This document shows, in pieces, positions 6,401-9,400 of a DNA stretch of 32,000 nt. Every line of letters starts with the position of its first letter. Positions within the stretch are counted from its first letter, which is position 1. Source of the stretch: Moraxella nasicaprae (GTDB lineage Bacteria > Pseudomonadota > Gammaproteobacteria > Pseudomonadales > Moraxellaceae); the NCBI RefSeq assembly GCF_025643275.1, contig NZ_CP089977.1, forward strand, positions 780,001 through 812,000, written 5' to 3'. Position numbers: made by a program.

Positions 6401-9400
6401 GCTGATGTCTTATTTTGAGTTGAATTGAGTATATTTTAATACAACCATCATGCTTTGTCGATGTTCTCATGCACGACATTGCAGCCAAAAACTTATGGTC
6501 ATGGCAATATTTTTTTGACAAAAAAAATTAACTTTTTAATACCGACCACCAATAAGCGTCAAATATCTTCTGGCAAGCACTGGCTAATCAGGTCATGCGG
6601 TTGTAAGATGAGCAAAACGACTTAATCAAAAAATTTGCACGAATTGATGTCATCAAAGCCGTCAGCACTTGCCAAAAACATACACACAAAATCTGGCGGT
6701 CGTACAAAAATCATCATGCTCTTCTAGTGCCTGACGATTGGCTTGTTTTGCTTTATAGGCATAAGGGGTCATCGCAATCAATGCACTAAGCTGAGTACGA
6801 TTTAGCACAAACTCATGCTCAATATGATGCTCCCCTAGCAGCACAAACTCAGGCGATAGCGTCTGAATGAATTTTTGGGGCGTATGAGCAATGACCTCGC
6901 CAAATAATGCTTGACGCATCTCATACAGATGGGCTGGTGCAGGTGTCGCCATGACAAGCAGCCCATCATCACAAAGTACACGAATCATTTGTGCCACAGG
7001 CAAAGGACTAAATAGACTGGTACAGACATCAACCGCACCATCAGCCACAGGCAACACCGCTCCTGTACCGACCACCCAAGTGATGTTGCCATGACTGCCT
7101 TGTTGAGCGTGTTGTTGCTTATCAGCTTTGGCGGCAATTTGTACTGCTGACTTGGCAATATCCACCGCCACCACCTGCTTGGCTACACTTGCCAAGCCTG
7201 TCGTATAATACCCCTCGCCACAGCCAATATCGACCAACACATCGACCGATGGCTTGTACTGATGAATGATGGCAGGTAGAGCGTCTTTGAGTGGCTCATA
7301 AAATCCTGCCGATAAAAATTGACGGCGAGCCAGCACCGCCTCTGGTGTGTCGCCAGGATTTTTACTGCGTTTGTGCTGCACAAGGTGCAAATTGACATAG
7401 CCTTCTTTGGCAATGTCAAAACTATGATTATTTGGACATCGGTAAGTGCGTTCGTGCTTGTCGAGAGCAAGCTGGCAAATAGGACAGGTCAGCATCATCT
7501 TATCTTATCGTCAATCAATTGGCTCTATTTTAGCATAAATTGGCGTATCGCCAGCATTTTTGGTTAATATTGCTATTATATTTCTAAAATAGATAAATTT
7601 TTACAATTTATTTACAAAAAATCTGTAATAAATTCGCCAAAACCTAAGTCTAATACGCCAAGAGCAGTATTCTGTTCTTAGTTTGCGTGATACAATACCA
7701 AGTAAATGTTTGCATTGGTGCAAATATTTCGTGCATTGATGCCAATGTTTACTTGGTTTTTTATAATCAAGTTTTTTTCTAAGGAATTGTCATGAAAAAA
7801 TTAGCAAAAACCGCCCTAGTAGGCTCTTTGGTAGTGGCAGGCGTTAGCCCTTTTACAATGAATGCAATGGCACAAGGTTACCAAAACCAACCTGCCAAAT
7901 GTGCAAAATCAGATAAAAAATGTGCCACCCAAGCCAAAAAAGCCGAAGCTAAGTGTGGCGAAGGCAAATGCGGTGGCACGGCTGCTGCTGGCACAACCAA
8001 AAAAGCAGACGCTAAATGCGGCGAAGGCAAATGTGGTGGTACAGCAACAACCGCACCAAAAACCACCGAAGCCAAGTGTGGCGAAGGCAAATGTGGCGGT
8101 TCTAAATAATTAACCATCATCAATTCCCCAACCTTTATCATCGGAGATACATCATGAAAACCAAAACTTTGGCAAAAACCGCTCTACTAGGCACACTATT
8201 AGCAGGTACTGTTGCTTGCTCACAACAAGAAGCTAAGCAAGAACAACCTTTTGAAGCCAAGCCAATGGAGCAAGGCTATCAAAATGGCGAGAAAGCAGCA
8301 GACGCAGCCCAAGCTGGTGCAGCAGATGCCAGCAAAGCCGAAGAAGGTAAGTGCGGTGAAGGCAAATGCGGTGGTGCAGCTGCTACTGGCACAGACGCTA
8401 AGGCAACCGAAGGTAAGTGCGGTGAAGGCAAGTGCGGTGGTGCAGCTGCTGGTACTGACAGCAAAGCTGGCGAAGCATCTTGCGGTGGCAACAAGACAAC
8501 CGACAACGCAACCGCCCCAGCGACAACCGAAAGCAAATAAGACTTGCTTAACTTATCATAACGGTAATTGGCTTAATTGCCGTTATGATTGAAATAAAGT
8601 TTATTTTTTATGTTTAATGACCAATCAACTGTCGTTAAACACAAAAAATAAATTAAATGCCTAAATGAGGGTTATTAAAATGAGTAAAAAAATATTAAAA
8701 GGGGCAGGTTTGGGCTTTCGCCGTGAATTATGCACCCAAATGCAAAATGACGATTTATCAGGCATTGATTTTTTTGAAGTATCGCCTGAAAATTGGATTA
8801 ACTCAGCAGGGCAAATGGGCGGGCGTTATGAAAAAATGCTCAGAGAATACACCGAACACTTTCCTTTTATTTGCCACGGTCTTTCTTTATCCATTGGTAG
8901 CAGTGCCAAATTGGACATAGACTTATTAAAAAATACCAAAAAATTTATGCAAGCCCACGATATGACGCTCTATACCGAGCATTTGGCGTGGACTTCTGAT
9001 GATAAGGGGCATTTGTATGATTTGTTGCCCATTCCTTGCACCGATGAAGCGGTAAAATGGACAGCAAATCGGATTAAACAAGCCCAAGATATTATGGATA
9101 TGCAAATCGGCTTTGAAAATGCCAGCTATTATTATCAGCCGCCAGATAGCGATATGAGCGATGCCCAGTTTATCAGTGCGGTGGTCAAAGAGGCTGATTG
9201 TTTACTTCATTTGGATATTAACAATATTTATGTCAATAGTCAAAACTTTAACTTTGACCCCATTGAGTATTTACATCAATTACCCTTAGAAAAAGTATGT
9301 TATATGCATATTGCAGGGCATTATGTAGAAGAAGATGGCTTTATTATTGACACACACGGGGCTGATGTTATTGAACCTGTTTGGCGACTGCTTGATGAAG

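What the first reader, a model, noticed from the sequence alone, without database searches (positions are those of the whole stretch)
7792..8540. Two tandem precursor paralogues: one soluble (6 motif Cys + 2), one apparently lipid-anchored; shared QGYQN motif
Seen: precursor 1 has a signal-peptidase-I type leader (AMA/QG), three exact KCGEGKCGG units spaced 63 and 60 nt apart, and an extra CAKSDKKC pair. Precursor 2 ends its signal peptide in LLAGTVAC, has two GKCGEGKCGG units and a degenerate EASCGG. The peptide units are identical, but their codons differ (tgt/tgc, ggc/ggt, aaa/aag). This argues for selection on the peptide rather than recent DNA duplication. Both proteins carry (A/E)QGYQN just upstream of the repeat region. 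It sits right after the signal cleavage site in one and 16 residues after the lipobox Cys in the other. Inference: QGYQN may be the recognition element for the DUF2063 partner. A lipidated copy would be a membrane-tethered Cu-binding RiPP alongside a free periplasmic or secreted one.
Basis: partly seen in the sequence, partly recalled or inferred. Interest (0 to 1): 0.7.

Follow-up and report, generated by a model that had tools for sequence, protein, structure and literature searches.

The report
Soluble and lipid-anchored copper-peptide precursors
A Moraxella genome carries two adjacent genes for small cysteine-repeat peptides that an iron enzyme encoded next door most likely converts into copper binders, one probably released in the periplasm and one probably lipid-anchored; this peptide family and its lipidated form have both been described before.

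Summary
Window 7792..8109 and 8154..8540 encode two HvfA-family (oxazolin/captophorin) precursors. They lie directly upstream of hvfB (MNIO), hvfC (DUF2063/RRE), hvfX (DoxX) and an ECF sigma/anti-sigma pair, in a Moraxella genome.

Precursor 2 is very probably a lipoprotein:
- It fits the PROSITE lipobox rule, which only 2 of 93 window ORFs do.
- The Cys is kept in orthologues from several lineages.
- Its N-terminus is under strong purifying selection (pN/pS 0.09).
- A lipidated EGKCG peptide, NedA, was shown experimentally in 2026.

QGYQN is real, but it is only the second half of a family-wide motif, [N/S]PF-x7-GY. The spacing is invariant in 223 of 312 sampled members. In precursor 1 the predicted SPase I site (AMA|QG) cuts through this motif.

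Published SP-less substrates (FonA-PE, MmrA) that carry this motif are modified, and the motif region is modelled as the RRE-bound strand. Against a strict requirement: single Ala substitutions are tolerated, H. influenzae HvfA lacks the motif, and three Moraxella lipobox orthologues lack GY.

The modest new point is that an SPI + SPII precursor pair in one operon recurs in three Moraxella lineages. Sister species keep only one type.

Verdict: a new member of a known kind, of moderate-to-low interest.

The parts
7739..7767 (+). sigma-70-like promoter candidate (ATGCCA-17-TATAAT) upstream of precursor 1
   Evidence: Consensus scan. One site was found against 2.1 expected by chance, so this is weak evidence on its own.
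7792..8109 (+). Precursor 1: HvfA-family precursor of SPase I type (105 aa; predicted mature form 78 aa)
   Evidence: ORF. NF050137 scores 49.5 bits against a cut-off of 19.5. It is 95% identical to P0013 and 70-76% identical to other Moraxella soluble-type precursors.
7792..7872 (+). Predicted Sec signal peptide of precursor 1 (aa 1-27, cleavage AMA|QG)
   Evidence: Inferred from the (-3,-1) rule and c-region length. SignalP was not available. The only alternative site, VAG|VS (17/18), would leave almost no c-region.
7849..7887 (+). Family motif PF-x7-GYQN in precursor 1 (aa 20-32, (S)PFTMNAMAQGYQN); the predicted SPase I site lies inside it
   Evidence: The 7-residue F..G spacer is found in 166 of the 169 members that match PF/LF..GY in the first sample, and PF-7-GY is present in 223 of 312 overall.
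7900..7923 (+). Non-repeat Cys pair C37-x6-C44, probably a disulfide
   Evidence: By analogy with the HvfA C38/C43 disulfide (PMC11252979). The pair is conserved in Moraxella soluble-type orthologues.
7951..7977 (+). KCGEGKCGG unit 1 of precursor 1 (Cys55, Cys60)
8014..8040 (+). KCGEGKCGG unit 2 of precursor 1 (Cys76, Cys81)
8074..8100 (+). KCGEGKCGG unit 3 of precursor 1 (Cys96, Cys101)
8154..8540 (+). Precursor 2: HvfA-family precursor of lipoprotein (SPase II) type (128 aa; predicted mature form 107 aa)
   Evidence: ORF. NF050137 scores 41.1 bits against a cut-off of 19.5. Its orthologue is the sole precursor in M. oblonga (L001 2796..3272).
8208..8219 (+). Lipobox T-V-A-C (aa 19-22); Cys22 is the predicted acylation site and Ser is at +2
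   Evidence: The PS51257-type rule is met, and only 2 of 93 window ORFs meet it. The Cys is conserved in P0001, P0002, P0007, P0008, P0019, P0024, P0048, P0125, P0129, P0149 and L015 A2.
8247..8285 (+). Family motif PF-x7-GYQN in precursor 2 (aa 32-44, PFEAKPMEQGYQN)
   Evidence: Against L015 A2 it shows 5 synonymous and 3 non-synonymous differences over 13 codons.
8349..8375 (+). KCGEGKCGG unit 1 of precursor 2 (Cys67, Cys72)
8415..8441 (+). KCGEGKCGG unit 2 of precursor 2 (Cys89, Cys94)
8472..8489 (+). Single-Cys half unit EASCGG (Cys110)
   Evidence: Similar half units occur in the lipobox-type orthologues L001, P0008, P0048 and L015 A2.
8555..8589 (+). 16-bp perfect hairpin between the precursor genes and hvfB; a possible attenuator or transcript stabiliser
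   Evidence: Fold energy -21.9 kcal/mol, z = -5.6. Comparable hairpins are present in L001, L003, L004 and L013 and absent in L005 and L011. Its function is inferred.
8665..9564 (+). hvfB, the MNIO maturase
   Evidence: NF003818 scores 381 bits against a cut-off of 360, and PF05114 gives E = 4e-93. It is 84-88% identical to Moraxella HvfB.
9773..10591 (+). hvfC, the DUF2063 + NGO1945_C (RRE) partner protein
   Evidence: NF050145 scores 170 bits against a cut-off of 142. PF09836 and PF22106 also hit.
10596..11291 (+). hvfX, a DoxX-family membrane protein
   Evidence: NF050144 scores 223 bits against a cut-off of 80. PF07681 also hits.
11451..12095 (+). ECF sigma factor (TIGR02943 family)
   Evidence: (199 bits against a cut-off of 162)
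12134..12325 (+). zf-HC2 anti-sigma factor (63 aa)
   Evidence: NF052368 scores 54.8 bits against a cut-off of 50. PF13490 also hits.

Best explanation
This is the substrate end of a Moraxella hvf (oxazolin/captophorin) operon. It encodes two differently targeted substrates for one maturase.

Mechanism, by analogy with characterised homologues:
1. Both peptides are made in the cytoplasm.
2. There the HvfB-HvfC complex (multinuclear non-haem iron oxidase plus DUF2063/RRE partner) converts each Cys of the KCG motifs into a 5-thiooxazole (-4 Da each).
3. Engagement uses the N-terminal region, meaning the signal peptide plus the conserved [N/S]PF-x7-GY stretch, of which QGYQN is the tail.
4. Both peptides then leave through Sec.

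Fate of precursor 1: SPase I cuts it, most likely at AMA|QG. This gives a soluble 78-residue periplasmic peptide with a C37-C44 disulfide and three heterocycle pairs, so about 3 Cu(I).

Fate of precursor 2: it is diacylglycerylated on Cys22, cut by LspA and N-acylated. Because residue +2 is Ser, it is probably sent by Lol to the outer membrane. The product is a 107-residue tethered peptide with two heterocycle pairs (about 2 Cu(I)) and one lone modified Cys.

Together they would buffer copper both in solution and at the membrane, under control of the adjacent ECF sigma/anti-sigma pair.

Shown here: gene identities, motif anatomy, lipobox fit, conservation, selection, and recurrence of the pair.
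Inferred: the modification, lipidation, localisation, copper binding and regulation.
For: - Family assignment of all seven genes above curated cut-offs.
- Organism and synteny.
- All differences between repeat units are synonymous.
- Lipobox rule met by only 2 of 93 ORFs.
- Lipobox Cys conserved in orthologues with divergent signal peptides, including canonical L/I at -3: GLAAC, GLVAC, SISAC.
- pN/pS is 0.09 over the first 46 codons of precursor 2 against M. oblonga at pS 0.63. It is 0.07 for precursor 1 against M. boevrei.
- The lipobox type is the only precursor in front of hvfB in M. oblonga, L005-8, L011 and L013, so it must be a competent substrate.
- The SPI+SPII tandem recurs in L009/L010, L004 and L015-18.
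- Literature: HvfBC modifies six Cys of HvfA, and the product binds Cu(I) (PMC11252979).
- Literature: the PTM was reassigned to 5-thiooxazole.
- Literature: NedA, an EGKCG lipoprotein, is triacylated and modified three times when co-expressed with NedBC (PMC13056109).
- Literature: SP-less FonA-PE and MmrA that carry the PF/VF-x7-GY region are modified, and the leader is modelled on the RRE sheet.
Against: - SignalP and LipoP could not be run.
- Thr at lipobox position -3 is uncommon, and TVA|C also fits the SPase I (-3,-1) rule.
- Nothing here shows expression, modification, lipidation or copper binding in this organism.
- The third unit of precursor 2 is degenerate.
- MITE-like repeats lie between hvfB and hvfC and after hvfX and could disturb operon expression.
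- The role of the PF..GY motif is not established. Single Ala substitutions in FonA are tolerated. HvfA lacks the motif. In vitro, HvfBC prefers HvfA that still has its signal peptide.
Confidence: 0.75

Rival explanations
1. Precursor 2 is not lipidated. Cys22 merely follows an SPase I site (TVA|C), and the product is a second soluble periplasmic peptide with an N-terminal Cys.
For: TVA|C satisfies the (-3,-1) rule. Thr at -3 is rare in lipoboxes (established knowledge of lipobox statistics). No predictor or experiment was available.
Against: - The Cys sits exactly at +1 in at least 10 orthologues from several lineages. Some have canonical L/I at -3.
- No SPI-type family member sampled carries a Cys there.
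- The rule matched none of the spurious ORFs in the window.
- NedA shows that this family does use the lipoprotein pathway.
Confidence: 0.15
2. Precursor 2 (or precursor 1) is a redundant, decaying duplicate that is no longer a substrate.
For: The third unit of precursor 2 is degenerate (EASCGG). Sister species manage with a single precursor of either type.
Against: - pN/pS is 0.07-0.09 on both N-termini, with synonymous sites near saturation.
- All differences between repeat units are synonymous.
- Each type is the sole precursor in some species.
- The pair is retained in three diverged lineages.
- Single-Cys half units are themselves conserved in lipobox-type orthologues.
Confidence: 0.07
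3. The PF-x7-GY(QN) element is not a maturase recognition signal. It acts in the mature peptide, for example as a structural cap or as a contact for a receptor, transporter or HvfX. Alternatively it acts in export timing, and the Sec signal peptide is the true leader.
For: - In most family members the whole motif lies after the AxA cleavage site, so it stays in the mature product.
- In vitro, HvfBC prefers HvfA with its signal peptide. The bufferin signal peptide is reported to act as leader (citing Junger et al. 2026, which I could not read).
- A single-site Ala scan of the FonA leader had no effect.
Against: - SP-less FonA-PE and MmrA constructs, whose only N-terminal extension is this region, are efficiently modified.
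- The AF3 model places the MmrA leader on the RRE sheet.
- In the Moraxella soluble type the predicted cleavage AMA|QG splits the motif, so an intact motif is not needed after export (inference).
Confidence: 0.3

Closest known systems
Oxazolin precursor HvfA (NTHI1441) and the hvfABCX operon of nontypeable Haemophilus influenzae (PMC11252979; structure revised in PMC13097082 and 10.64898/2026.07.17.739211)
   Same: - Sec signal peptide.
- N-terminal Cys pair, then three (A)EGKCGEGKCG units.
- The same maturase set (MNIO HvfB, DUF2063 HvfC, DoxX HvfX).
- Association with an ECF sigma stress response.
Precursor 1 is built like HvfA.
   Different: - Both window peptides score below the HvfA equivalog cut-off (54.8 and 28.7 bits against 95).
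- HvfA has no PF-x7-GY motif.
- The H. influenzae operon has one precursor and no lipobox form.
- The gene order differs: hvfX is upstream in NTHi and downstream here.
NedA / lipo-NedABC of Neisseria dentiae, a RiPP-lipoprotein of the oxazolin family (PMC13056109)
   Same: It combines an SPase II signal with EGKCG motifs and is modified by an MNIO plus partner. Triacylation and -4 Da per motif were shown in E. coli. This is the direct precedent for precursor 2.
   Different: - I could not retrieve the NedA sequence, so its relationship to precursor 2 is untested.
- The held text of that paper does not mention a companion SPI-type precursor in the same operon.
- Precursor 2 has paired KCGEGKCG units, whereas NedA is described as having three EGKCG motifs.
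Fontiphorin precursor FonA (Fontimonas thermophila) and bulbicupramide precursor MmrA (Microbulbifer), which are captophorins (PMC13097082, PMC12538549)
   Same: They carry the same N-terminal element: FonA has VFQASDLGAGYMVA and MmrA has NPFAAADLSSGYNVA, with the 7-residue spacer. The authors treat this region as the leader. EGKCG cores are converted to 5-thiooxazoles that bind Cu.
   Different: They have single precursors, no lipobox and no N-terminal Cys pair. The local version here ends GYQN rather than GYM/QV.
Bufferins Buf1 (DUF2282) and Buf2 (BUF_6/12Cys) (PMC11626156, PMC12452194)
   Same: They are Sec-exported, MNIO/DUF2063-modified, Cu-chelating periplasmic RiPPs. About 16% of Buf2 are predicted lipoproteins. 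Tandem precursor genes and sigma/anti-sigma genes occur in their clusters.
   Different: The core folds and Cys motifs differ, and there are no EGKCG repeats.

Membership tests
HvfA family (Buf_EGKCG / oxazolin / Lys-Cys captophorin precursors) | Repeated (E)GKCG motifs, usually in KCGExKCG pairs | tested here: met
   NF050137 scores 49.5 bits (precursor 1) and 41.1 bits (precursor 2) against a cut-off of 19.5. There are three and two exact KCGEGKCGG units respectively.
HvfA family (Buf_EGKCG / oxazolin / Lys-Cys captophorin precursors) | N-terminal Sec-type signal peptide | tested here: inconclusive
   Both have a Lys-rich n-region and a hydrophobic h-region, followed by an AxA site or a lipobox. 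No SignalP or LipoP run was possible.
HvfA family (Buf_EGKCG / oxazolin / Lys-Cys captophorin precursors) | Gene placed directly before MNIO (HvfB), DUF2063/RRE (HvfC) and usually DoxX genes | tested here: met
   HvfB, HvfC and HvfX all score above their NCBIfam cut-offs immediately downstream. The same arrangement is found in L001-L005, L011 and L013.
HvfA family (Buf_EGKCG / oxazolin / Lys-Cys captophorin precursors) | Motif Cys converted to 5-thiooxazole (-4 Da each), and the product binds Cu(I) | not testable with these tools
   Known only from homologues.
HvfA equivalog (orthologue of H. influenzae HvfA, NF050188) | Whole-protein score of at least 95 bits | tested here: not met
   Scores are 54.8 and 28.7 bits. 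The peptides are family members, not orthologues in NCBI's sense.
Bacterial lipoprotein (SPase II substrate): precursor 2 | Basic n-region, uncharged h-region, and lipobox ending in Cys at position 15-35 (PROSITE PS51257 pattern) | tested here: met
   K2, K4 and K8 are followed by TALLGTLLAG-TVA-C22. The rule is matched by 2 of 93 window ORFs.
Bacterial lipoprotein (SPase II substrate): precursor 2 | Strict lipobox consensus [LVI][ASTVI][GAS]C | tested here: not met
   Position -3 is Thr in the Moraxella clade (TVAC). Orthologues P0007, P0008 and P0125 have L/I at -3.
Bacterial lipoprotein (SPase II substrate): precursor 2 | Conservation of the +1 Cys in orthologues | tested here: met
   The Cys is kept in L001, P0001, P0002, P0007, P0008, P0019, P0024, P0048, P0125, P0129, P0149 and L015 A2.
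Bacterial lipoprotein (SPase II substrate): precursor 2 | Actual S-diacylglyceryl / N-acyl modification, with globomycin-sensitive processing | not testable with these tools
   The only precedent is NedA.
RRE-dependent RiPP leader: the PF-x7-GY element | Conserved, unmodified N-terminal segment present across the family | tested here: met
   PF-7-GY is present in 223 of 312 sampled members, and GY in 274 of 312. The spacer is 7 residues in 166 of 169 matches.
RRE-dependent RiPP leader: the PF-x7-GY element | Required for binding to the partner protein and for modification | not testable with these tools
   Indirect evidence for: SP-less FonA-PE and MmrA are modified, and an AF3 model exists. 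Indirect evidence against a strict need: the Ala scan is tolerated, HvfA lacks the motif, and P0019, P0024 and P0048 lack GY.

The most novel reading that the evidence does not exclude
Some Moraxella lineages deliberately keep a two-compartment copper-binding system. One HvfBC maturase serves both a soluble SPase I precursor and an outer-membrane-anchored SPase II precursor from the same operon. Both are recognised through a shared leader, the conserved signal peptide plus the fixed-spacing [N/S]PF-x7-GY strand. In the soluble type that leader is cut in two on export. This would show that the motif works only before export, as the RRE docking strand of most of this very large RiPP class.
Probability: 0.4. 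Interest if true: 0.45.

Novelty: new member of a known kind. Interest (0 to 1): 0.3.

Why it matters
Captophorins (oxazolin and bufferin type peptides) are among the most numerous RiPP classes, with more than 20,000 clusters reported. They are linked to copper and oxidative stress and to virulence in respiratory pathogens.

This locus adds nothing new in chemistry. It does offer a natural experiment: the same maturase with a soluble and a lipid-anchored substrate side by side, and sister species that keep only one of the two. That could be used to ask where copper buffering is needed (periplasm, outer membrane or vesicles).

The fixed-spacing PF-x7-GY element could also be tested as the docking site for the DUF2063/RRE partner, to clarify how it shares leader function with the Sec signal peptide. 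That question is currently open in the field.

Tried and rejected
- I looked for the exact precursor 2 protein in the 5.8-billion-protein collection. It is absent: the best hit is 59% identical, and only truncated identical copies exist on L009/L010.
- I tried to obtain the H. influenzae HvfA sequence by homology search from a Pasteurellaceae relative. It was not returned, and I eventually took it from the SI of PMC13097082.
- I tried to read Junger et al. 2026 (signal peptide as bufferin leader). It is not held, so it is cited only through the preprint that quotes it.
- I aligned upstream regions of six Moraxella loci to find a shared (ECF) promoter. Conservation was too poor to call anything.
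- The promoter/terminator scan gave no more hits than shuffles.
- The Rfam scan of the window found only tRNAs.
- I considered that the Slam gene at 25841..27307 might export the lipidated peptide. There is no adjacency, and precursor 2 lacks the beta-barrel domain typical of Slam substrates (established knowledge), so I rejected this as unsupported.
- I considered recent gene conversion between the two paralogues. The shared segments differ at synonymous sites, so I rejected it.
- I did not run structure prediction. Only single chains can be submitted, and a disordered leader folded alone would be uninformative.
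Full report
**Observation**

The two ORFs are exactly as described.
- Precursor 1 (7792..8109, 105 aa) has eight Cys. Three identical KCGEGKCGG units start at nt 7951, 8014 and 8074, so the spacing is 63 and 60 nt. 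An extra pair, C37-x6-C44, lies upstream of them.
- Precursor 2 (8154..8540, 128 aa) has LLAGTVAC with Cys22, two GKCGEGKCGG units (nt 8349 and 8415) and a degenerate GEASCGG (Cys110).
- The five units differ pairwise at 1-5 of 27 nt. All seven variable sites are synonymous third positions. Only 17 of 81 possible single-base changes in such a unit are synonymous.
- QGYQN occurs at aa 28-32 and aa 40-44.

**What it is**

- Both peptides pass the curated threshold of NCBIfam NF050137, the HvfA-family 'KCGExKCG_twice' domain. Both fall below the HvfA equivalog threshold.
- Directly downstream lie hvfB (MNIO; 381 bits against a cut-off of 360), hvfC (DUF2063 + NGO1945_C), hvfX (DoxX), an ECF sigma factor and a zf-HC2 anti-sigma factor.
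- HvfB is 84-88% identical to the proteins of Moraxella oblonga, M. boevrei and Moraxella sp. Pampa. The window is therefore from a Moraxella species.

The family is well studied:
- In H. influenzae, HvfBC modifies the six repeat Cys of HvfA, and the product binds Cu(I) (PMC11252979).
- The modification has since been reassigned from oxazolone/thioamide to 5-thiooxazole.
- The wider class, named captophorins, has more than 20,000 clusters in RefSeq.

**Is precursor 2 a lipoprotein?**

I could not run SignalP or LipoP, so I used four indirect lines of evidence.
1. The N-terminus meets the PROSITE PS51257-type rule. Only 2 of 93 window ORFs of at least 60 aa do so. The other is an esterase with a canonical LTAC lipobox.
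2. A Cys at the end of the h-region is kept in orthologues whose signal peptides have diverged. Some of these carry canonical L/I at -3: GLAAC, GLVAC, SISAC. SPI-type members never carry a Cys there.
3. The first 46 codons of precursor 2 against the M. oblonga orthologue give pN/pS = 0.09 at pS = 0.63.
4. A lipidated member of this family has been demonstrated. NedA of Neisseria dentiae was isolated triacylated and modified three times when co-expressed with NedBC. The same paper states that subsets of bufferins and oxazolins carry SPII signals (PMC13056109).

The weak point is Thr at -3. This is unusual, and TVA|C would also suit SPase I. I put lipidation at about 0.8. With Ser at +2, the E. 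coli rule predicts outer-membrane sorting. That last step is inference.

**The pair is not a one-off**

- M. oblonga has only the lipobox type in front of hvfB. M. boevrei and sp. Pampa have only the soluble type.
- The SPI+SPII tandem is found on contigs of the same species (L009/L010) and in two further diverged lineages. These are L004 (P0022 + P0019) and L015-L018 (an ASA|NPF-type SPI peptide plus a TTVAC lipobox peptide).
- The lipobox type also occurs alone before an MNIO gene on L005-8, L011 and L013.

Both types are therefore competent substrates of near-identical maturases. The two-gene state has been maintained in three diverged lineages and is absent from sister species that keep a single type. 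I found no mention of an SPI+SPII pair in one oxazolin operon in the papers I could read. Tandem precursors in bufferin clusters are mentioned.

**QGYQN**

- Among 312 family members collected in three searches, 274 have GY before the first repeat, 249 have PF, and 223 have PF-x7-GY.
- In the first sample the spacer between F and G was exactly seven residues in 166 of 169 matches. The consensus is [N/S]-P-F-x4-[L/M]-x2-G-Y-[M/Q].
- Both window peptides fit in register: SPF-TMNA-M-AQ-GYQN and QPF-EAKP-M-EQ-GYQN.
- In most members the motif follows an AxA cleavage site. In the Moraxella soluble type the upstream AxA is gone and AMA|QG lies inside the motif. If that is the cleavage site, the motif is split on export. 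AMA|QG is favoured by the (-3,-1) rule and c-region length, because the only alternative, VAG|VS, leaves almost no c-region.
- That split argues, by inference, that the intact motif matters before export, in the cytoplasm.

Published work fits a leader role:
- The minimal in-vitro substrate FonA-PE is a signal-peptide-less 'leader region' (QASVFQASDLGAGYM...) plus two repeats.
- The MmrA constructs start MNVSAANSNANPFAAADLSSGYNVA... and are fully modified.
- An AF3 model places the MmrA leader as a beta-strand on the MmrC RRE sheet.

Three facts argue against an absolute requirement:
- All single Ala substitutions in the FonA leader were tolerated.
- H. influenzae HvfA has no such motif. In vitro it depends instead on its signal peptide.
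- The Moraxella lipobox orthologues P0019, P0024 and P0048 keep PF but have lost GY while still sitting beside an MNIO gene.

**Mechanism proposed**

1. Cytoplasmic HvfBC engages the N-terminal region and oxidises each motif Cys to a 5-thiooxazole.
2. Sec exports both peptides.
3. Precursor 1 becomes a soluble 78-residue peptide with three Cu(I) sites and a disulfide.
4. Precursor 2 becomes a 107-residue lipopeptide with two sites plus a lone heterocycle, anchored most likely in the outer membrane.
5. The ECF sigma/anti-sigma pair links expression to envelope, oxidative or metal stress, as reported for the H. influenzae operon.

A strong hairpin (8555..8589, z = -5.6) separates the precursor genes from hvfB. 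Similar hairpins recur in several related loci. It may raise the precursor-to-enzyme transcript ratio, but that is speculative.

**Verdict**

The system is a known kind, and lipidated oxazolins were published in March 2026. What is new is limited to two points: the recurrent soluble-plus-anchored pair in Moraxella, and the explicit definition of the fixed-spacing PF-x7-GY element, which the signal-peptidase site bisects in one paralogue. Interest 0.3.

Noticed in passing
window 15998-19554 and 20230-23786: A 3,557-nt inverted repeat, 100% identical, with arms 675 nt apart. It covers the C-terminal two-thirds of two convergent S6 (IgA1-protease-like) autotransporter genes, 13725..19511 (+) and 20273..25582 (-). 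This is either very recent gene conversion or duplication, or an assembly artefact. Such a structure could mediate inversion.
   Followed up: partly
window 25841-27307 (+): A Slam (surface lipoprotein assembly modifier; SlipAM + TPR_Slam) gene lies next to the autotransporters. There is no obvious substrate lipoprotein gene immediately downstream. No evidence links it to precursor 2.
   Followed up: partly
window 9614-9705 and 11317-11395: Two copies (89% complementary, inverted) of a roughly 80-90 nt palindromic MITE/REP-like element (GTTCGCCCTGAGCTTGTCGAAGG...TTCGACAAGCTCACCACGAACGG). They bracket hvfC-hvfX, one in the hvfB-hvfC gap and one after hvfX. They create the spurious ORFs 9642..9788 and 11206..11373.
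   Followed up: partly
window 5539-6428: IS630/Tc1-like transposase split into two ORFs (5539..5907 and 6024..6428), lying between the BD-FAE esterase and rlmA. The element is absent from the same position on the conspecific contig L009.
   Followed up: partly
window 12415-13577 (+): A group-1 glycosyltransferase appears split into two overlapping frames, 12415..12861 and 12804..13577. There is no homopolymer tract at the junction, so this is a frameshift, a pseudogene or a sequencing error.
   Followed up: partly
window 8555-8654; L001 3285-3510: Two successive hairpins lie between precursor 2 and hvfB. In M. oblonga the same outer hairpin arms enclose about 200 nt of extra sequence, which suggests an insertion into the loop.
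   Followed up: no
window 67-484 (-): A tRNA cluster, Thr(GGT)-Gly(TCC)-Tyr(GTA)-Thr(TGT).
   Followed up: no
L012 3020-3391; L005 3862-4779: Unannotated genes sit upstream of lipobox-type precursors in other lineages. One is a 123-aa protein with its own lipobox-like LVTAC (L012). The other is a conserved 305-aa protein without Pfam hits (L005/L007).
   Followed up: no
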